Source: a virus
Lineage: Duplodnaviria > Heunggongvirae > Uroviricota > Caudoviricetes
Reading direction: 5' to 3' (one strand)
Virus record (IMG/VR): IMGVR_UViG_2695420600_000017
DNA: 37,554 nt
A program made the translations under genes and the position numbers. Within the stretch, counting starts at the first letter, position 1. Each line of letters begins with the position of its first letter. Shown here piece after piece: positions 1 through 37,554 of this stretch. Below the pieces are notes generated by a model. It was given only the letters and a program-made list of their open reading frames with translations. It was not told the origin of the DNA and ran no database searches.

Positions 1-330
1 GAACGTCTGGTTCAGCAGATTTGGCGCAACTGGCAGATTGTGGTTCGAGTTCGTAGTCGCTCTGAACTTGCGTTTCTGCTTACAGCGTAGCCTTAGCTCC
101 TTACGAAGACGTGCCAGTCGGTCACGACCAACGATGATGCCATTCTCTGCCAGCTCCGTCTGGAGCCGCCGGGTTCCATATGTTTCGCGAGTGCGGATAT
201 GTGCCACCTTAATCTCCAGTTTTAGCCGCTCATCACTTTGTTTTCTGTCTGAGGGTTCATGCTGTACCCAGTTGTAATAACCGCTCCTGGATACACCAAA
301 TACCTGACACATATAGCGCGGCGATTTTTT
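1..330 (-). mobile_element. IS3-family insertion sequence fragment (transposase OrfB-region N-terminal part, runs off window start; no orfA upstream)
   Basis: Hand translation of minus strand from ATG at 310-312 gives MCQVFGVSRSGYYNWVQHEPSDRKQSDERLKLEIKVAHIRTRETYGTRRLQTELAENGIIVGRDRLARLRKELRL..., the typical IS3-family OrfB N-terminal region before the DDE domain. An A7 run sits just upstream (about 324-331). Family-level resemblance ends near 313-330, where the prophage end repeats begin. Confidence 0.55.
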
Positions 331-439
331 TGATACCGATTTGCATTTCATTTGATACCGCTGAAAAACGCCGATACGCAACTTATTTGATACTAAATCG
401 GCGCTTTTCTTTTGAGTTTTAGAATGAGTTTTTAAGCGT
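331..439. repeat. Prophage right-end region with three direct TTGATAC(CG) repeats (candidate transposase-binding sites)
   Basis: TTGATACCG at 330-338 and 352-360, TTGATAC at 387-393; the second repeat TGATACCGCTGAAAAACGCC resembles the recalled Mu right-end sequence TGAAGCGGCGCACGAAAAACGC. Lies between the mom stop (440) and the IS fragment. Exact terminus not determined. Confidence 0.4.
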
Positions 440-1180
440 TCATTCACTCTCTTTCAAACCAGTTTTAACTGTTTGTGGTTTTGGGTAAGGCTGGACTTTG
501 AATAGCTTTGTGTTAAGGCGTTTTCTGGCTCTCTTGTCCAGAAACCGGATGTAACGAAACTGACGGAATTTATGAACACTGGCTCTGTCGATATTAGCCC
601 GCAGATGTTCACCTCGCTGTCCTCCTCGTTTGATTGCATTCTTGCAAATCTCGTGATACCACTCGCCATCAAGTTCATAGAATGTTGTTTCATGACTGCC
701 TACATAATCAAAATTGCTTGCCTGGTACACGACACCAAGACAGCCACAACGCTCATCTGCAAACGACTGAACCCACTGCACCTGCGGATAAAGTTGTCTG
801 ATTAGTTTGAGCGCGTAACTGATTGCCCTTGATTCGGAGTTTCTCGGCATACAGTCATGCAGCCATAACCGGTTAAGCTCCATATATTCGCGGTTCTGCG
901 TGCCAGTTACGACGCGTGCACCATTGTTTGGATTAAGGGCATAACCCCATTGCATTACGCCAACCAGCTCCCGTTCTGAAAATATGCCCAGATGAAGGTA
1001 GGAATTATTTACGAAACGATGGCTGTAATGTTTATTGACGACGACCAGCCGGGCCAGCCAGCAACTTATTGTCTCAACCCGTAACTCACGGGAGCCATAA
1101 CCGACGATATTGTCGTTATAGTGAATAAGTTCAGGCGTGCTGATGATACGGGATGTAACTTGCTTTCTGTTCCCCACGAC
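440..1180 (-). CDS. mom: Mom-like DNA modification protein; start uncertain (GTG at 1178-1180 chosen, ORF is open up to 1372)
   Basis: Long ORF overlapping and directly downstream of a com-like zinc-finger gene, at the extreme right end of a Mu-like prophage, as in Mu. No in-frame ATG near the com stop, so a non-ATG or internal start is inferred. Confidence 0.55.
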
Positions 1181-1331
1181 AGGATTTCCTTGTGTATGTG
1201 GGGTGCTCTGTGGCGCTCTGAGATGTGATTTGATTGAGGGTTTTACAGCGCGGACATTTGACTTCCAGATAACTGAAGCTGGCTCGTGCCAGTAGCTTGT
1301 TACAATGTCGGCACCGTATGTTTCGATACAT
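1131..1331 (-). CDS. com: Com-like zinc-finger translational activator of mom
   Basis: [34 protein letters not shown]... carries the CxxC...CxxC pattern and resembles recalled Mu Com (MKSIRCKNCNKLLFKA...RCPRCK). AGGAGG about 10 nt upstream of the ATG at 1329-1331. The track ORF begins at a TTG further upstream. Confidence 0.7.
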
Positions 1332-1470
1332 GGCCGCATAACCTCCTGCTTTGTTGTTGATATCTTTATCACTCAATCGATCGACAAAAACGATCGATTT
1401 GATTTATTTAATTGATACAACAAATAACACGAAATGTCATTAGCGAAAATTTATGAGTTTGATCACTAAT
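1332..1470 (-). promoter_or_regulatory. Putative com-mom promoter/operator region with GATC (Dam) sites
   Basis: GATC at about 1379-1382 and 1392-1395 (within TCGATCGA and CGATCG palindromes) and again at about 1461-1464, upstream of com. In Mu the mom promoter is controlled through clustered GATC sites. Promoter elements themselves not identified. Confidence 0.3.
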
Positions 1471-4741: not shown

Positions 4742-5045
4742 CGTCTTTTCTGCCTGTTTCTGAATTAAACAGAGTCAGAATAACAACCGCTGATAAATAT
4801 GTGTTTTGCGGAAATTCAAAAAAAGCATCACGGTACTTTTTGTGACGGAGCCGGTTAGGCAGGAACATAACGACAAAGGATGGACAGGCCAATACGATAA
4901 CCGCATATTACCGGCTTATAATTGATTTAACGATTCATGACGCTGCGGTCAGCATCTGAAAATATGCGTTATTTCAGAAACCCCTTGCCTGTATATGGCG
5001 ATATTATTATTCCTGTTTTTATCATTGATTTACATGGTGATGTTT

Positions 5046-5567
5046 ATGCAACTGATTAATGTTAAACGATATTACCCGGAACAAAAACCCTTTGGTAATG
5101 ATGTACAGTATTTTCAAAGTGAAGATGGTAAGGATTTCTATGAGTCCCTGCCATTATTCACCAAAAAATATAAACTTTGCATAACCCCTGACAGCGGTGT
5201 TATCTGCTCAATATCACAGGATGCTTCGGCGCTGTATCCTGCGGGTTTTTCCGTTGTTGAGACAGACGAATTACCTGAAGGTACTGATATTTCAGGTAAC
5301 TGGAAGTTTGATAATGGTGTCATCTCACAACTCCCGGTTAACTATACCAAAAAAGCGGAAGCACTGCGCCAGTCATATCTTAATCAGGCATATGAAAAGA
5401 TTAATGACTGGAGAACTGAGTTACAGCTGGGCACGATTAGTGATGAAAACAGAGCTGCGCTTACACGATGGATGAAATACATCAGTCAGGTGAAAAAAAT
5501 GGAACTACCAGCGATTAAAAACAAAGCTGAATTTGACGCCATTAAATGGCCGGAGAAGCCTGAATAA
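5046..5567 (+). CDS. Tail fibre assembly protein (Mu U/U'-like, Tfa family), opposite strand to the late operon
   Basis: DISGNWKFDNGV and LQLGTISDENRAALTRWMKYISQV resemble recalled Mu U (DISGKWMFKDGVV, LRLGIISDENKQKLTEWM). Start chosen at the ATG with GGTGATG upstream; the track ORF starts at 4995. Confidence 0.7.
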   Translation: MQLINVKRYYPEQKPFGNDVQYFQSEDGKDFYESLPLFTKKYKLCITPDSGVICSISQDASALYPAGFSVVETDELPEGTDISGNWKFDNGVISQLPVNYTKKAEALRQSYLNQAYEKINDWRTELQLGTISDENRAALTRWMKYISQVKKMELPAIKNKAEFDAIKWPEKPE

Positions 5568-5570
5568 CAT

Positions 5571-5600
5571 AAAGGGTGCTTATCGCACCCTTTTCCTTTA
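5571..5600. terminator. Bidirectional intrinsic terminator between convergent tfa (+) and S (-)
   Basis: AAAGGGTGC-TTATC-GCACCCTTT hairpin followed by a T-rich tract on both strands, in the 34-bp gap between the two stop codons. Confidence 0.5.
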
Positions 5601-5601
5601 A

Positions 5602-6513
5602 TCAGACGGATGAAACTGTGCGCCAGGCATTACCGATATATATCTGCACCGGACGGTAATAAACGCCTCCGATATTATCGGCTGAACTTTTCCCGGTATC
5701 CTGCACGTTAATACCTGAAAGCATACAACCAGAAGGTGCACCATAACTCCAGGACATTTCATTACCTCCGGGTGAATGGTAACTCTGGGCACCAAGCTGA
5801 ACGTTGCTAACGTATTTGTTATCAGCAGTAGCTTCAGTCATACCGGAGGTAATGTATATGTCCTGCGTCCCGTCAAAAGGAACGCCATTAATATTTCTTG
5901 GGGTGGAGAGTTTATTCGCGGCAACGGCGGTGCCGTCCGATGGCAGAGCATTCGCCGCCTTATTCACCGTTTCCCGTAAACCGACGTTATCGATAAAAGC
6001 CCCTTTATCCGGAATGTCTGCGCCGTTCTGCTCCCTGCGCAGGTAACGGTTATCACCTTCGCTTTTGCTGTAAACATCCAGATTATTACGGGCGGTTCCC
6101 TTATTCTCCAGGTCGGCGAGATTCTGATCCTTCGCCAGGGCATTAACGTCACCGGGACCAAGACTGTTTTTTGTGGCAAGCGTCCCCAGACCAAGATAAC
6201 CACGGGCCAGACGCTGGGCCTCCGCACCGGCATCAGCAATTTCTTTCAGGTTATTTTTCCGGGAAAAGGCATTCGCAGCGATAATGGCTTTAATGGACAG
6301 CGTAAGCTGGTTTAACTGCGCCTTATCCGGCTGAATACTGGCTTCAGCCAGAATATTCAGCAGTTCGGCCTGGAGAATATTCAGCCAGTCCTGACCAATC
6401 CAGCTGATACCTTTTTGTCCGTCACCTTCGGTAAACCAGGTGGTGGTATTACTCTGCGCCGGTGCCAGCGCAGGCATATTCGCCACGCCGGAATTATTAT
6501 CAACATGAAACAT
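5602..6513 (-). CDS. S: Tail fibre protein (Mu S-like; constant N-terminal part plus short variable C-terminal part)
   Basis: Follows the R-like gene in Mu order. 303 aa versus about 500 in Mu. A gix-like site lies at about codon 176, the position of the Sc/Sv junction in Mu. Confidence 0.7.
   Translation of the reverse strand: MFHVDNNSGVANMPALAPAQSNTTTWFTEGDGQKGISWIGQDWLNILQAELLNILAEASIQPDKAQLNQLTLSIKAIIAANAFSRKNNLKEIADAGAEAQRLARGYLGLGTLATKNSLGPGDVNALAKDQNLADLENKGTARNNLDVYSKSEGDNRYLRREQNGADIPDKGAFIDNVGLRETVNKAANALPSDGTAVAANKLSTPRNINGVPFDGTQDIYITSGMTEATADNKYVSNVQLGAQSYHSPGGNEMSWSYGAPSGCMLSGINVQDTGKSSADNIGGVYYRPVQIYIGNAWRTVSSV
5971..5996. other. gix-like (Gin/Hin/Cin/Pin-family) crossover-site sequence inside the tail-fibre gene
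   Basis: TTCCCGTAAACCGACGTTATCGATAA matches the recalled Mu gix site TTCCTGTAAACCGAGGTTTTGGATAA at 22 of 26 positions, including the central GA. Confidence 0.45.
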
Positions 6514-20565: not shown

Positions 20566-20686
20566 ATTGCCTCCGCATAAAGGATGAATATAAAATAAAC
20601 AGGCGGTCAGTGTACGCTTAACTGGTAAAGTCGGTGCCTGCCTCCGGGTGGATCATGTATGCGGGTTCGACCCCCGCCACTGACCG

Positions 20687-32335: not shown

Positions 32336-32866
32336 TTATTTATTCAGTCCGGCGTCCTGTTCAAAAGGCTCGACATAAAAACTTTCAGCGCCTTTATTCA
32401 CCTTGATACCGGCAATGCCTTTCACAGCATCCGGCTCCGCCAGGACGGCTTCCTTGTTCACTTCCTCTTTCGTGCGGATGAAACGCTCAAGCCCCATACG
32501 GCGCAGCATTTCAATCACACCTTCCACATCACGGCTGACGCTGCATGATGGCGTTCCCAGCCGCCATGACACCGTTCCGGTGGTCAGATTGGCTGTTTTG
32601 GTTTTGCCGCCGTTCGTCAGCTCATCACGGTTGGTTTTGCACCAGTCCTGAATCCCTTTAAAAAGCACTTTGATTTGCTTTTTAAGATTTTCAATCTGCG
32701 GCGTATAACGGGCGGTGATTTCTGCCACTTCGTCATTCATCGCCGTTTCCAGGCGCAGCGCCTCTCGCTGAATATCTCCCAGGGTGCGGATATCACGGCT
32801 GACTTCTTCCCGGGTCTGCGGTGCCGCCTCGGCTGCGGCCTTTAATTTTGTAACGCGTTTAGCCAT
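32336..32866 (-). CDS. gam: Gam, host-nuclease inhibitor (Ku-like DNA end-binding protein)
   Basis: Blocks such as RDIRTLGDIQREALRLETAMNDEVAEIT, NRDELTNGGKTKTANLTTGTVSWR and ERFIRTKEEVNKEA match recalled Mu Gam. Confidence 0.9.
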   Translation of the reverse strand: MAKRVTKLKAAAEAAPQTREEVSRDIRTLGDIQREALRLETAMNDEVAEITARYTPQIENLKKQIKVLFKGIQDWCKTNRDELTNGGKTKTANLTTGTVSWRLGTPSCSVSRDVEGVIEMLRRMGLERFIRTKEEVNKEAVLAEPDAVKGIAGIKVNKGAESFYVEPFEQDAGLNK

Positions 32867-32877
32867 TTTGTTTTTCC

Positions 32878-33171
32878 TTATTGCAGTGTGCCTGATGCTT
32901 TATGCACGCGGTGGCGTTTAATGATGGCATCCGCTCCAAAAGACTGTGCAGATGCCTGAAATTCCGCTGAGAGAAACTGAATAATTGCAGGACTGTGATA
33001 CTGGAGAATACTTGCATAAACGTCACAGAGTGACGTCGGCCTGTTATCCGTATCACGTTCTGTTTTCACATCCACTCCAATCTTTTCATGCACTTCAACA
33101 CAGTCATTGCCTGCCAACTTTTCGTCATGCGAAACATGATTAAATTCAAAAATAACGCGTACTTTGCTCAT
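32878..33171 (-). CDS. Small protein (about 97 aa), paralogue of the adjacent upstream gene
   Basis: Start taken at MSKVRVIFEF; shares the N-terminus and a KASA/AEF block with the neighbour. Confidence 0.45.
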   Translation of the reverse strand: MSKVRVIFEFNHVSHDEKLAGNDCVEVHEKIGVDVKTERDTDNRPTSLCDVYASILQYHSPAIIQFLSAEFQASAQSFGADAIIKRHRVHKASGTLQ

Positions 33172-33175
33172 GGAA

Positions 33176-33448
33176 TTACCCCTGTTGATTAAATTCATTA
33201 CCGTTAATAACCCCGGAAGCCATGCCTCTGTCTTTCATGAATGCACTGGCTTTCATTGCCACAAACTCTGCGAAGTTTCTGCTTTCTGCCAGCATAACCA
33301 CCCCAAAAATCATGGCGGGTCCATTATCTTTCTTCTTTATTCCGGTTGAACGTATATCCAGACTTACCCCTCTGTGCGTGCTGCCATCAGAGTTTTTGCA
33401 GATAACATCTTCCTTGTATTCGAAAATAATGCGTACGACTTTACTCAT
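33176..33448 (-). CDS. Small protein (90 aa), paralogue of the adjacent downstream gene
   Basis: N-terminus MSKVVRIIFEYKED, similar to the neighbour. Confidence 0.45.
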   Translation of the reverse strand: MSKVVRIIFEYKEDVICKNSDGSTHRGVSLDIRSTGIKKKDNGPAMIFGVVMLAESRNFAEFVAMKASAFMKDRGMASGVINGNEFNQQG

Positions 33449-33726
33449 CCTCTGGTCCTCGTTCTGTTTGGATAACTGACCCGGCGTCTAACCTCACGGC
33501 AGAACCGAATCATGGCATTAAAGGCTTCTTCCTCCGTCACCGCTTCCGGTATCCCCGGAACCAGTAACTGCTCCTGTTCATCACGTCCATGACGCGCCAT
33601 AACCTCAATCACATGCCGTACCGTGGCAGGCTTTCCGGCAACTATCGGCAATGCACCTTCCGGCAGGACGTAACCAAACTCAATAAGACCACTCGACCAC
33701 GCCCATGCAATGAGATTTTTTTTCAC
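33445..33726 (-). CDS. Hypothetical protein (93 aa)
   Basis: ORF in the early region. Confidence 0.45.
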   Translation of the reverse strand: MKKNLIAWAWSSGLIEFGYVLPEGALPIVAGKPATVRHVIEVMARHGRDEQEQLLVPGIPEAVTEEEAFNAMIRFCREVRRRVSYPNRTRTRG

Positions 33727-33727
33727 C

Positions 33728-33994
33728 TCACACCTCCCAGTAAACCGTGCAGCCGCTGATGCGGGTGGCCTTCACACGGCGGCGCAGGCCGTTGGTCTGT
33801 ATGGTGATTTCAATTTCACCGGTTCCCTGCACGTTGCCTACCGGCGGCGTGGTTTTCAGTGCAAAACGTTGCGGATAGCGCTTACTGCGTTCCAGTACCG
33901 CACCGGCAAGTTCGGTCAGACGGCGCGCGCTGTTCAGGGAGTCGAATAAATTCATTTTGTTACCGCAGGATTGCATATTCATATAACACCTCAT
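33728..33994 (-). CDS. Hypothetical protein (up to 88 aa; start may be the internal MNLFDSLN)
   Basis: ORF in the early region. Confidence 0.4.
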   Translation of the reverse strand: MRCYMNMQSCGNKMNLFDSLNSARRLTELAGAVLERSKRYPQRFALKTTPPVGNVQGTGEIEITIQTNGLRRRVKATRISGCTVYWEV

Positions 33995-34222
33995 TTAGCT
34001 GACTTGTTTCGCACCAACAGAACGGCATATTCCGCTGTAAACTTCTGTCGCACCTTCGCGATCAAGTCCGGCAGATATCACCATTCGTGTGCGGTCATTA
34101 AATTCAAAAAGTAAATCGCCACATTCTTTATTTTCGGCCAGTGAAATCACCTTCACGTTATCGAAATTAACCAGGTAAAAGCGTCCGTAAATATCAGGAA
34201 TATTAAATACCGCCATAATCAC
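33995..34222 (-). CDS. Small protein immediately downstream of B (position of Mu kil)
   Basis: 75 aa; positional analogy only. Confidence 0.4.
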   Translation of the reverse strand: MIMAVFNIPDIYGRFYLVNFDNVKVISLAENKECGDLLFEFNDRTRMVISAGLDREGATEVYSGICRSVGAKQVS

Positions 34223-35160
34223 ACCTGTGAGAGTAATTCAGGGTTGGTATAAACCTCTTTAAAGGCCGCATTAATATGTTTTTCTGTCAGCGCCGCGCCT
34301 TCACCGCTGGCGGTGAGCCACGCCTGGTTAAGCGTATGTGTCAGAACGCGTAACGCTCCCGGCTTTTCAGCGATAGCCTGCATGACGGCCAGCTCGGCCT
34401 CACCACTGATCCCCCACGCCATGGCAATGGCCAGCACATCCGCCTTTTTGGCCTTGCGAAGTTGTTTTGTACGGGCAAGACGGCTGAACAGGCGCGATAA
34501 ATCATCAAAGGCGCGGCGTCCACCTTTAAACAATCCGCGCGGGTTACCAATAAGCACCATCCCGATCCCCGTGGCGTCCTGAATTGCCCGGAGTTGCTCC
34601 AGACCGTCAATACCAAGATGATCCGCCTCATCCACAATCACCAGTCCACGCGTTCCCATCAGGCGACGGCGGATGGCGCGGGATAATGCCCCTTTGTTCG
34701 CGCGGGTGTAATCAATCCCCAGCGCATCGGCCAGCTCCAGCAGACACTCCGTGACGCTGGAGTGCGCGGGTGACAGGGTGATCATCCAGGTGTTTGGTTG
34801 CTCCTGGCAGTAATTACGGGCAGTGGCCGTTTTACCCACACCCGGTACGCCCACAATAACGTTAATACAGCCCATCAGGCGAACCGCCTGAAACAGTGCG
34901 CGCAGCTCCTGGACTGTCTGAGTTTCCACAAACTGCGGCGGTTCCGGCAGTGCGCTTTGTTTATTCCAGTTCTCATACCAGGAGCGCAGGGAAGCAGCCA
35001 CAGCAGCGTTATCGCCTTTATATTTTCCCTTACGGAAAGCCGATAATGTGCCGTCGGAAATTCCCGCCTCTCTGGCGATGGCATACTGCGTCAGTACGCC
35101 GCCATCAATAAGTTCATCAATGGTCTTGATTACATCGTTAATATCGGTCATATTATTCAC
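34219..35160 (-). CDS. B: MuB-like ATP-dependent target-DNA activator (AAA+)
   Basis: 313 aa; Walker A GVPGVGKT and Walker B LVIVDEADHL; N-terminal HTH; directly downstream of the transposase. Confidence 0.9.
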   Translation of the reverse strand: MNNMTDINDVIKTIDELIDGGVLTQYAIAREAGISDGTLSAFRKGKYKGDNAAVAASLRSWYENWNKQSALPEPPQFVETQTVQELRALFQAVRLMGCINVIVGVPGVGKTATARNYCQEQPNTWMITLSPAHSSVTECLLELADALGIDYTRANKGALSRAIRRRLMGTRGLVIVDEADHLGIDGLEQLRAIQDATGIGMVLIGNPRGLFKGGRRAFDDLSRLFSRLARTKQLRKAKKADVLAIAMAWGISGEAELAVMQAIAEKPGALRVLTHTLNQAWLTASGEGAALTEKHINAAFKEVYTNPELLSQV

Positions 35161-35233
35161 CTCGCTTGAGACAGCATTCTCCGAGACTGAAACCTCAAAT
35201 AACCTGAGTCACCCCTCGGGTTATTTTTTTATT

Positions 35234-37321
35234 TCAGGCCAGCGGATCACTTTCTTTTAATTTCGCTTCGAGCAGTTGCAATCCCCGCTGGAAATTACGC
35301 TCGTATTCTTCATCAGGTTCATCGTCAGCGACCGGTTGCTGAACGGTCACCGTATTACCCACAGGGCGGTATATGTTTTCCAGCCAGGGCTCCTGCGGCT
35401 TGTGCTCCAGCACGTTGACAACCTCATCCTCGGCATCACGGATTTTTTCCTCTGCGCGTTTACGCATGCCTTTAAGGCGCTGCTGCTGTTTGTAGTATTC
35501 CGCGCTGACAGGGAAGGCTTCGCGTTTATTGCCGTCCCATACCGCCTCGCAAATCACGCTGCCATCCGGGCGGCGCACGGTAATTCGTTCGGCATCATGA
35601 ATGTCATAGCTGATAAGTACCTTACGGCCATGCTCGTCACGCAGCTCGGGCGCGTAGTAAATATTATTCAGCCAGCGTATTTCACAGCGTCTTACAGGGC
35701 GCTCCACCATCGGCCGGAACATATCCCGCAGTTCAACATCGGACAGCCATTCAATTTCCGTGTCCTCTTCCGCCAGGCGTTTTTTTCTGAACTCCGCCGG
35801 GCTGTAATGTTTACCGTTCGGCTTCATGGGTAATTCATCGTGCGGCCGGTTGTTGTACCACTCAACACCGTCACGAATGGCATCAATCAGTTCAGACCAG
35901 GACGGTAAATCACGCATCGCTGACTGCTGCCGGGCGTTCAGCCGTTTGCCCTGTTGCAGGGCACTGAATGCCGAGCGTAAATCGCGGTTGGTTTTACGTA
36001 ACGTCTCGCGATCTGCTCCTTTCCCGAAATAGGTGCGGTATTTACGGGCTATGCGCATCGGTAATGTGCGGTTAAGCCGTTCGATAATGCCCCGTCCCTG
36101 CGGATTACCGGCAATCCCTGTCGGGTGATTAATCCCCAGTCGTGGCAGTATCCCCACAATCTCCTTATCCAGGACGTCGGCGGTTTCCCCGGAGCCATTA
36201 TCCGAGTAATACAGAAACGGTTTGCCATGATGGCGAATACCGTGCTGTATGGCACCGGCTACGGCGAAAACATTTTCAGCCAGGTCAAGGCTCCAGCCCA
36301 CCACAAAGCGCGTGCCACCGTCGATAACAAAGGTCACTTCCGGTGCGAATGGCCGCCCGTGAACCGGGTGCGCGCATTTCAGCTTCATGCCGTGACCGTC
36401 ACCAATCCAGACATAATTCACCGGCATTTTTGACCAGTCGCGGCGCGTGAATCCCTCAAGCTGGCGGTATTCACTGCCGGTAACCCGTCCTTTTTGTTTC
36501 ACCACTTCCGGCAGTTTCTTCATTGCGCGGCGAATGGTGTCATAAGACGGCATGATATCGAGCATATAAGGCTCATCAGCGTGCCGGTGCTGCCATTCGG
36601 CAACAAAATCCTCGTAAGCCTCGGTCATTGGTCGGCCGTTTGACTGGCGATACTGCGCCAGAAATTCGGGCAACCAGTTAATATCTTCGGCTTTTATTTC
36701 CTGGCGTTTACCTGGTGCCAGCAAAAGCAGGCGTTCAGCAGCGTTCTGTGCCTTATTAAAGGCCGCAATCCAGCGTTTCAGCGTGATTTCACTCAACACG
36801 CGACTGTTTCCCTTTCTGGCGTTCGCTATCTCAACCATTGCCACAATGCGCTCATCCAGTTGCGAGTGTGACAGGCGGTCAACGATGAACCGGATAGCTT
36901 TAGCGCAGCTGAAACCGGGTTGTTGCGTGAATTTCAGCACCTCACTGACGATCGCAATGCGTGCGTCTGCCACCTGGCGCTGGTTTTCAGTCAGGGCATT
37001 GAGGCGTTCGACCATCAGTTGTGGTGATCCGCGATATGCCTCCACCGCATCAACCACGGCAGACGAGCGTCTGGCCTTTGTCACCACCGGAGCCGGTGAT
37101 TCATCGGCTTTTTGCGTCATCAGTTGCAGGGCATAACGTTCGCGTAATGCCTGCTGTGTCACTTCAGGTAAACAGTCAATGCTGTATTCAAAACCTTTAG
37201 CGCCTTTCTTGCGGCGTCTGCTGGTTTCGCTGGTTGCATACTTCCTGATTGAATAGCGAACGCCTTGCTCCGTTCCCGGCATCCCCGGTAATCCAACCAG
37301 TTCTTTGACTGAAGCAAACAT
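35234..37321 (-). CDS. A: MuA-like DDE transposase
   Basis: 695 aa between ner and B; size and position as MuA (663 aa recalled). Confidence 0.9.
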   Translation of the reverse strand: MFASVKELVGLPGMPGTEQGVRYSIRKYATSETSRRRKKGAKGFEYSIDCLPEVTQQALRERYALQLMTQKADESPAPVVTKARRSSAVVDAVEAYRGSPQLMVERLNALTENQRQVADARIAIVSEVLKFTQQPGFSCAKAIRFIVDRLSHSQLDERIVAMVEIANARKGNSRVLSEITLKRWIAAFNKAQNAAERLLLLAPGKRQEIKAEDINWLPEFLAQYRQSNGRPMTEAYEDFVAEWQHRHADEPYMLDIMPSYDTIRRAMKKLPEVVKQKGRVTGSEYRQLEGFTRRDWSKMPVNYVWIGDGHGMKLKCAHPVHGRPFAPEVTFVIDGGTRFVVGWSLDLAENVFAVAGAIQHGIRHHGKPFLYYSDNGSGETADVLDKEIVGILPRLGINHPTGIAGNPQGRGIIERLNRTLPMRIARKYRTYFGKGADRETLRKTNRDLRSAFSALQQGKRLNARQQSAMRDLPSWSELIDAIRDGVEWYNNRPHDELPMKPNGKHYSPAEFRKKRLAEEDTEIEWLSDVELRDMFRPMVERPVRRCEIRWLNNIYYAPELRDEHGRKVLISYDIHDAERITVRRPDGSVICEAVWDGNKREAFPVSAEYYKQQQRLKGMRKRAEEKIRDAEDEVVNVLEHKPQEPWLENIYRPVGNTVTVQQPVADDEPDEEYERNFQRGLQLLEAKLKESDPLA

Positions 37322-37323
37322 AA

Positions 37324-37554
37324 TTACGCGACCTTACGAATGTAGCGGCTGGGCCAAATCTCCTCGGGCGGCACCCCCAGGCATTCCGCGATAATCCCCT
37401 CATACTTGGGAACATGGCGGTATACCGCGTTGTACAGATTGTTCTGACCCACGCCAGCTTTACGGGCCAGCGCCCTCATGCTTCCTTCTCTGGCTCTGAC
37501 TTCCCCCAAAATTCTTTGAGGATGCCAATCAGGCTTAACTTCATTTCTCGCCAT
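37324..37554 (-). CDS. ner: Ner-like DNA-binding regulator (Nlp/Ner family)
   Basis: 76 aa; ends with EEIWPSRY as in recalled Mu Ner (PEVIWPSRY); directly upstream of A. Confidence 0.8.
   Translation of the reverse strand: MARNEVKPDWHPQRILGEVRAREGSMRALARKAGVGQNNLYNAVYRHVPKYEGIIAECLGVPPEEIWPSRYIRKVA

What the first reader, a model, noticed from the sequence alone, without database searches (positions are those of the whole stretch)
1..440. Prophage right end joined to a truncated IS3-family transposase
Position 1-312 encodes a typical IS3-family OrfB N-terminal region on the minus strand, but no orfA precedes it. Instead three TTGATAC repeats resembling transposase-binding sites follow, then mom. 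This suggests the phage transposed into a resident IS element, which would date the insertion relative to the IS. The orfB reading frame stays open through the junction to 453, which may be chance.
Basis: partly seen in the sequence, partly recalled or inferred. Interest (0 to 1): 0.4.

Follow-up and report, generated by a model that had tools for sequence, protein, structure and literature searches.

The report
Mu-like prophage inserted into IS600
A transposable, Mu-like (Sp18-type) prophage has jumped into the middle of a resident IS600 insertion sequence and split it in two; this is an ordinary, already documented kind of event for these phages.

Summary

- **IS fragment:** window 1-311 (minus strand) is nt 714-404 of IS600 (IS3 family) at 100% identity. 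It covers the 5' part of orfB and lacks orfA and the frameshift site.
- **Phage terminus:** the match stops exactly where the right end of an Sp18-type Mu-like prophage begins (window 312, TATAGCGCGG...). More than 20 independent insertions elsewhere define the same terminus.
- **Repeats:** the three TTTGATAC repeats (329-336, 351-358, 386-393) are real. They start 18, 40 and 75 nt from the right terminus. Inverted copies start 18, 113 and 165 nt from the left terminus, and the positions hold in an 81%-identical relative. This is the Mu R1-R3/L1-L3 layout of transposase-binding sites.
- **Other junction:** the window is the first 37,554 nt of contig CXCN01000012.1. There the phage left end (coordinate 38,530) abuts IS600 nt 1-407, with IRL, an intact orfA and the slippery site.
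- **Target duplication:** IS600 nt 404-407 (TGTG; window 308-311 CACA) is duplicated. This is a simple insertion with a 4-bp duplication, not 5 bp. All seven insertions examined show 4 bp.
- **Open frame:** the frame running to 453 is a property of the phage end, joined in phase by chance.

The finding is known biology and of low interest.

The parts
1..311 (-). IS600 (IS3 family) fragment, nt 714-404 of the 1264-bp element. It is the 5' part of orfB (HTH_21 region). The window and its contig start here because the assembly breaks inside the repeat.
   Evidence: 100% identity to IS600 copies; NF033516 and PF13276 hits; coordinates mapped on the intact copy L005.
308..311 (.). Right-hand copy of the 4-bp target-site duplication (CACA on the + strand; TGTG = IS600 nt 404-407).
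   Evidence: The left junction in L067 ends ...GAAGCGATGTG|TATAACC and the right junction reads TATA|TGTGTCAGG. 4-bp duplications are seen in six other insertions.
312..439 (.). Right end (attR) of the transposable prophage. The terminus is TATAGCGCGGCG..., and the non-coding end region runs up to the mom stop codon.
   Evidence: Phage matches from different chromosomal sites all begin at window 311-312. The terminus is identical in L007-L011, L022, L026 and L052.
329..336 (+). TTTGATAC repeat 1, the putative R1 transposase-binding core, starting 18 nt from the terminus.
   Evidence: A copy sits in the same register (nt 18) at the left end, inverted.
351..358 (+). TTTGATAC repeat 2 (putative R2), starting 40 nt from the terminus.
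   Evidence: Conserved in the 81%-identical copy L052.
386..393 (+). TTTGATAC repeat 3 (putative R3), starting 75 nt from the terminus.
   Evidence: Conserved in L052, whereas the GATAC at 373-377 is not.
312..453 (-). Outward-reading open frame of the phage end (47 codons) that happens to be in phase with IS600 orfB.
   Evidence: In JE86-ST02 PGAP starts citF at the GTG equivalent to window 447-445, and a 438-aa fusion is called in L028.
440..1177 (-). mom (245 aa as annotated in relatives; the ORF is open to 1372).
   Evidence: PF25680 E=1.6e-77. RefSeq annotates WP_000528246.1 at the equivalent position.
1131..1331 (-). com (zinc-ribbon translational activator of mom).
   Evidence: PF10122 E=1.3e-12; RefSeq 'Com family' CDS in relatives.
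34219..35151 (-). MuB-type AAA+ transposition protein.
   Evidence: PF09077 E=7.7e-25 and AAA_22.
35234..37321 (-). Mu-type transposase (695 aa).
   Evidence: PF02316 and PF09299 above the gathering score, with only sub-threshold rve core hits. The only PDB relative at the MuA level is the N-terminal domain 1TNS, E=7e-6.
37324..37554 (-). ner-type early regulator. The window stops at its start codon. The repressor gene and the left end lie 976 nt further on, outside the window.
   Evidence: PF13693 E=1e-21; L067.

Best explanation
A 38,219-bp Sp18-type, Mu-like transposable prophage (contig coordinates 312-38,530) integrated by DDE transposition into a pre-existing chromosomal copy of IS600, between or at IS600 nt 404-407.

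Inferred mechanism. The phage transposase binds the TTTGATAC-containing sites, three at each end. R1-R3 lie within 82 nt of the right terminus. L1-L3 start at 18, 113 and 165 nt from the left terminus. The transposase pairs the ends, exposes the 3' OH at the terminal ...TATA-3', and joins both ends to target phosphates staggered by 4 nt. Repair of the gaps duplicates TGTG.

Consequence. IS600 is split. IRL, orfA, the slippery site and the first codons of orfB are on the repressor side. The rest of orfB, and presumably IRR, are on the mom side. That IS copy can no longer make OrfAB transposase or move as a unit.

Shown: both junctions, the duplication, the repeat layout and the gene content. 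Inferred: protein binding to the repeats, and the chemistry.
For: - Right junction. IS600 identity ends and phage identity begins at 311/312. The same phage terminus is seen at citF, ypdB, flgL, bcsA, an rhs element, a diguanylate cyclase gene and others.
- Source. L027 is identical to window 288-21,646 with contig coordinate equal to window coordinate. L067 is identical to window 32,634-37,554.
- Left junction. I predicted it at coordinate 38,530 with sequence ...GGTTATA|CACATCGC before seeing it. It was found exactly so: the flank is IS600 nt 1-407 at 100%, preceded by unique DNA with a kch-like gene.
- Duplication size. It is 4 bp in 7 of 7 insertions. The depositors of LC727895.1 annotate it as 4 bp.
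- Repeats. They are enriched, symmetric at both ends and conserved at 81% divergence.
- Transposition genes. Transposase, MuB, ner, gam, mor, com and mom are all present.
- Literature. Sp18-like Mu-like phages sit at variable sites, and 6 of 10 were inside mobile elements in CC119 STEC (PMC10132054). Strain-specific sites are reported in O157 (PMC7430833).
Against: - Nothing contradicts this explanation.
- The source is a short-read draft contig that begins inside IS600. IS600 nt 715-1264 and the DNA beyond are therefore not seen on the mom side.
- Binding of the transposase to the TTTGATAC sites is inferred from layout and conservation, not measured.
- The termini are TA rather than the CA typical of Mu and most DDE elements, so the cleavage chemistry is assumed by analogy.
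Confidence: 0.96

Rival explanations
1. IS600 came second: it transposed into, or next to, the end of a resident prophage.
For: IS600 is abundant and active in these genomes (up to 43 places per genome). ISs are found inside related prophages, for example an IS5-like element in L008 and IS1 in L019.
Against: An incoming IS would be joined at its own inverted repeats. Here both junctions are internal to IS600 (nt 403/404 and 407/408) and lie at the exact phage termini. The duplicated 4 nt are IS600 sequence, and the IS600 IRL is joined to chromosomal DNA.
Confidence: 0.01
2. The junction is a secondary rearrangement. Replicative or intramolecular transposition, or recombination between two prophage copies or two IS600 copies, left the prophage with unrelated flanks.
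For: Mu-type replicative transposition produces deletions and inversions in which one copy has non-matching flanks (established Mu biology). Some genomes carry 2-4 copies of this phage. Before the left junction was retrieved this could not be excluded.
Against: The flanks are the two complementary parts of one IS600, in the same orientation, overlapping by exactly the 4-nt duplication typical of this phage.
Confidence: 0.02
3. Assembly artefact: a draft-assembly misjoin between a phage end and a repeated IS.
For: The contig is a short-read draft that starts inside IS600. The junction sequence occurs in no other collection searched.
Against: Two independent junctions on the same contig are reciprocal to the base. 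They fall exactly at the termini defined in other genomes and show the family-typical 4-bp duplication. A random misjoin would not do this.
Confidence: 0.01

Closest known systems
Sp18, the Mu-like prophage of E. coli O157:H7 Sakai, and its relatives in STEC (PMC7430833, PMC10132054)
   Same: Same gene order and content. About 96% nucleotide identity of the mom end to O157:H7 copies. Variable insertion sites, frequent insertion into other mobile elements, and a 4-bp duplication as annotated in LC727895.1.
   Different: A different allele mosaic. This copy lacks the invertase and alternative tail-fibre segment present in L007 and L009. The insertion site is strain-specific.
Bacteriophage Mu
   Same: Same lifestyle and early and late gene set: repressor, ner, transposase, MuB, gam, mor, com and mom. 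Three transposase-site repeats at each end, close-packed at the right end and spread out at the left. Near-random target choice with a short duplication.
   Different: No megablast-level DNA similarity to any deposited phage except Mu-like inserts in Stx phages. Against MuA structures the transposase matches only the N-terminal DNA-binding domain (E=7e-6). The end repeats have a different sequence. The termini are TA, with TG at some left ends, instead of TG...CA. The duplication is 4 bp instead of 5 bp (the Mu values are from established knowledge).
IS600 (IS3 family; first described in Shigella sonnei, from my own knowledge)
   Same: 100% identity over 311 nt (window) and 407 nt (left flank). 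The orfA / A7G slippery site / orfB organisation and the terminal inverted repeats are seen in the intact copy L005.
   Different: This copy is split by 38.2 kb of phage DNA and is therefore inactive as a unit.

Membership tests
IS600 / IS3 family | Nucleotide identity to IS600 | tested here: met
   100% over window 1-312 in more than 2,800 records annotated 'IS3-like element IS600 family transposase'. The left flank equals IS600 nt 1-407 at 100%.
IS600 / IS3 family | OrfB with an HTH_21 region followed by a DDE (rve) catalytic core | tested here: inconclusive
   Only the HTH_21 part lies in the window (PF13276 E=1.4e-14). NF033516 scores 97 bits, below its 160-bit cut-off, because the window holds a fragment. 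The rve part lies beyond the start of the contig.
IS600 / IS3 family | orfA, a -1 frameshift site, and an overlapping orfB | tested here: met
   Absent from the window. Present on the other side of the prophage (100-aa PF01527 gene in L067) and in the intact copy (orfA nt 62-364, A7G at nt 316).
IS600 / IS3 family | Terminal inverted repeats TG...CA and a 3-bp duplication | tested here: met
   In the intact copy L005 the ends are TGAGGTAGCC... and ...CACCTCA, flanked by GCG on both sides within ninF. The IRL of the split copy is seen in L067. Its IRR was not seen.
Mu-like transposable phages (Sp18 type) | Mu-type transposase plus MuB-type AAA+ partner | tested here: met
   PF02316 and PF09299 above their cut-offs, with only sub-threshold rve core hits; PF09077 and AAA_22.
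Mu-like transposable phages (Sp18 type) | Many unrelated insertion sites, each flanked by a short duplication | tested here: met
   More than 25 different flanks. A 4-bp duplication in 7 of 7 cases where both ends were read.
Mu-like transposable phages (Sp18 type) | Multiple transposase-binding repeats at both ends, in inverted orientation | tested here: met
   In sequence terms, TTTGATAC starts at nt 18, 40 and 75 (right) and 18, 113 and 165 (left), and is conserved at 81% divergence. Actual binding cannot be tested with these tools.
Bacteriophage Mu sensu stricto | 5'-TG...CA-3' termini and a 5-bp duplication | tested here: not met
   The right terminus is TATA... in all copies. The left terminus is TATA... 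or TGTA... The duplication is 4 bp.
Bacteriophage Mu sensu stricto | Close sequence similarity to Mu and MuA | tested here: not met
   No Mu hit by megablast in 50,697 phage records. Only the MuA N-terminal domain is found in the PDB, at E=7e-6.

The most novel reading that the evidence does not exclude
The Sp18-type clade is a mechanistically distinct branch of Mu-family transposition. It shows a 4-nt target stagger and TA (not CA) transferred-strand termini. Its own TTTGATAC end-site code differs from Mu's, and its transposase core is barely recognisable as MuA. As far as I could find, these features appear only as a GenBank feature note and not in the searchable literature. The window's IS600 insertion is simply one more clean example of this.
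Probability: 0.4. Interest if true: 0.3.

Novelty: already known. Interest (0 to 1): 0.1.

Why it matters
The finding matters little beyond annotation.

- It fixes the exact prophage boundaries (312 to 38,530 on the contig; 38,219 bp).
- It shows that the 'truncated transposase' is one half of a split IS600 and not a separate gene.
- It gives the order of events: IS600 first, phage second.
- It adds one more case of Sp18-type phages landing in mobile elements, which is already reported.
- It cautions that boundary callers and readers who assume Mu's 5-bp duplication and TG...CA ends will misplace the ends of this phage family by a base or more.
- It shows that gene callers fuse host ORFs to the open frame in the phage's right end.

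Tried and rejected
1. Searches for the right junction in E. coli complete genomes, plasmids, GTDB representative genomes and IMG/VR found nothing. The insertion is private to the source lineage.

2. Searches for the predicted left junction in genome, metagenome and viral contig collections found nothing.

3. Exact-protein look-ups with the transposase at 10-kb and 4-kb flanks and with ner returned only other insertion sites. Cluster look-ups of 27 window proteins found no rarer protein near the left end. Shrinking the flank to 2.6 kb finally surfaced the source contig.

4. I tested the hypothesis that the source shares the P2-sheath insertion of the nearly identical, deleted prophage in L019/L020. 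It was rejected: their repressor and truncated-sheath alleles carry no accession from the source assembly, and the left junction then disproved it.

5. L018, which has an IS600 fragment near a phage left end, is a different lineage (1.5-2.7% divergent). There the phage sits in another IS nested in IS600.

6. I looked for an uninterrupted IS600 at the same kch site in E. coli complete genomes. Two genomes have IS600 near kch, but not in a contiguous match. I did not pursue this.

7. A fourth GATAC at 373-377 was considered as a binding site and rejected, because it is not conserved in the 81% relative.

Full report
**What is in the sequence**

The minus strand of window 1-312 translates without stops into MCQVFGVSRSGYYNWVQHEPSDRK.... 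This matches the IS3-family transposase model NF033516 (E=1.2e-27, profile positions 106-210 of 369) and Pfam HTH_21. At the DNA level, 1-312 is 100% identical to IS600 in more than 2,800 E. coli records.

I mapped the fragment on an intact 1264-bp IS600 copy that interrupts ninF in strain E2865 (L005). The window holds IS600 nt 404-714. In that copy orfA is nt 62-364 and the A7G slippery site is at nt 316, so the window lacks orfA, the frameshift site and the first ~20 codons of the orfB frame.

Intact IS600 continues ...CTGACACAT|CGCTTCAATGG, whereas the window reads ...CTGACACA|TATAGCGCGG.

**What it is joined to**

From 312 onward the window is a Mu-like prophage in reverse orientation.
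- mom (PF25680, E=1.6e-77) ends at 440, and com overlaps its start.
- The window ends with MuB, a 695-aa Mu-type transposase and ner.
- Megablast of 1-1400 against 5,426 complete E. coli genomes finds the phage part in many unrelated contexts: citF, ypdB, flgL, bcsA, an rhs element and a diguanylate cyclase gene. Nearly all of these matches begin at window 311-312, a few running 2-10 nt further by chance. No record contains the IS600-phage junction.
- Window 312 is therefore the phage's right terminus, TATAGCGCGGCGATTTTTTTGATACC. Base 312 (T) coincides by chance with the next IS600 base.
- The phage resembles the O157:H7 Mu-like prophages (about 96% identity at the mom end), known in the literature as Sp18-like (PMC7430833, PMC10132054).
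- It has no megablast match to deposited phage genomes, apart from Mu-like inserts inside Stx phages at 81%.

**The repeats**

TTTGATAC occurs four times in the 37.5-kb window against 0.81 expected. Three copies lie at 329-336, 351-358 and 386-393 (repeat families).

Counted from the terminus, they start at nt 18, 40 and 75. In relatives whose left ends I could read, the same octamer sits in inverted orientation at nt 18, 113 and 165 from the left terminus. All of these positions are kept in the 81%-identical copy carried by an Stx1a phage, while the intervening sequence diverges. A fourth GATAC at 373-377 is not kept.

Identical register at both termini, inverted orientation, close packing on the right and wide spacing on the left reproduce the R1-R3/L1-L3 arrangement of phage Mu (established knowledge). 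The sequence is different from Mu's sites. Reading these repeats as transposase-binding sites is well supported by sequence evidence. Binding itself is inferred.

**Target duplication**

In five complete relatives (L007-L011) the element is bounded by TATA...TATA, with TGTA at one left end, and flanked by 4-bp direct repeats, never 5. The depositors of LC727895.1 annotate a 4-bp 'duplication due to insertion of Mu_JNE122137'.

From this I predicted that the other junction of the window's prophage would lie 976 nt beyond the ner start codon (coordinate 38,530). I predicted it would read ...CCTGGTTATA|CACATCGCTTCAATGG, duplicating window 308-311.

**Finding the other junction**

The window stops at the ner start codon, so the left end is outside it. 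The junction sequences are absent from E. coli complete genomes, plasmids, GTDB representatives, JGI metagenomes and IMG/VR.

An exact-protein look-up with a rare allele (the DNA circularisation protein) returned contig CXCN01000012.1 of assembly GCA_001251255.1 (52,862 bp). This contig is identical to the window with the same coordinates. The window is therefore the first 37,554 nt of a draft contig that begins inside IS600 because of an assembly break in a repeat.

After several look-ups that showed only other insertion sites, a transposase look-up with a 2.6-kb flank returned coordinates 32,634-39,921 of the same contig (L067).
- The left terminus is at 38,530.
- The flank is IS600 nt 1-407 at 100%, ending ...GAAGCGATGTG|TATAACCAGG.
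- It contains an intact 100-aa orfA (PF01527).
- It is preceded by unique DNA with a kch-like gene.

The right flank starts at IS600 nt 404. The two halves of one IS600 thus flank the prophage in the same orientation and overlap by TGTG. This is a simple insertion with a 4-bp duplication, exactly as predicted. The prophage is 38,219 bp.

**Rivals**

- IS600 inserting into the phage is excluded. The junctions are internal to IS600 and terminal for the phage.
- A secondary rearrangement is excluded. Replicative transposition or recombination between copies would leave non-matching flanks.
- An assembly chimera would not give two reciprocal junctions with the family-typical duplication.

**The open frame**

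The frame open from 453 to 312 belongs to the phage end and is there in every near-identical copy. PGAP starts citF at the GTG equivalent to window 447-445 in strain JE86-ST02, and a 438-aa fusion ORF is called in L028. In the 81% relative the same frame is open for 40 codons, and a second frame is also open near the terminus.

In the IS3 family the transposase is the OrfAB fusion (established for IS911 and IS3). A fragment lacking the OrfA part is therefore not expected to be active.

**Comparison with the known, and verdict**

This phage works like Mu but is not Mu.
- Against MuA structures the transposase matches only the N-terminal DNA-binding domain (E=7e-6). Its core scores nearer to retroviral integrases.
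- Pfam gives the Mu DNA-binding and Mu-transposase C-terminal domains above threshold, and only sub-threshold hits to the rve core models.
- The termini are TA rather than CA, and the duplication is 4 bp rather than 5.

It is a member of the Sp18-type group. For that group, variable sites and frequent insertion into mobile elements (6 of 10 copies) are already published.

Noticed in passing
window 308-315 and L007-L011, L052/L053, L067: This phage family makes 4-bp, not 5-bp, target duplications (7 of 7). Its ends are TATA... on the right and TATA.../TGTA... on the left, instead of Mu's TG...CA. I found this noted only as a GenBank feature in LC727895.1, not in the papers I could search.
   Followed up: yes
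window 1 (contig CXCN01000012.1 position 1): The window is the first 37,554 nt of a 52,862-bp draft contig that starts at IS600 nt 714, an assembly break inside a multicopy IS. IS600 nt 715-1264 and the DNA beyond are unseen. Several of the window's exact proteins carry source names from Shigella sonnei as well as E. coli.
   Followed up: partly
window 20606-20685 (+): An 80-nt tRNA-like element lies between the virion-morphogenesis and minor-head genes. It is identical to what RefSeq annotates as 'tRNA-OTHER' in relatives. ARAGORN and Rfam find nothing. It folds into a cloverleaf with a 7-bp acceptor stem and a canonical GTTCGA T-loop, but has a 4-nt loop where the anticodon loop should be.
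   Followed up: partly
window 4742-6513 versus L007 7494-9991: This copy lacks the invertase (recombinase) gene and the partial alternative tail-fibre gene that relatives L007, L009 and L024/L025 carry. It has a single tail-fibre/assembly pair, so the host-range switch segment seems absent or fixed.
   Followed up: no
window 35234-37321 (-): The 695-aa transposase is only remotely related to MuA. The PDB search finds just the MuA N-terminal domain (1TNS, E=7e-6). The catalytic core scores nearer to retroviral integrases than to any MuA core structure.
   Followed up: partly
L018 7907-8800: In another genome (GCA_019732275.1) a related phage (1.5-2.7% divergent, identical transposase protein) is inserted in a second IS3-type element that itself interrupts an IS600. 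This is an IS-in-IS-in-phage nest, in line with the published tendency of these phages to sit in mobile elements.
   Followed up: partly
L019/L020 (L050, L059): Two 4.65-Mb assemblies carry a nearly identical phage (1 mismatch in 8.4 kb of the early region) inserted in a P2-like tail-sheath gene. It has an internal deletion equivalent to window 4951-29136, and an IS1 truncates it near window 1389.
   Followed up: partly
L003 129-1637; L028 21301-: Annotation pipelines extend interrupted host genes into the phage's right end, using the open frame and the GTG at window-equivalent 447. This creates chimeric 'citF' and 438-aa proteins.
   Followed up: partly
window 440-1372 (-): The mom reading frame is open for 310 codons from a GTG at 1372 and overlaps com entirely. 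Gene callers give 245, 299 or 310 aa in different records. The Mom domain covers residues 96-298.
   Followed up: no
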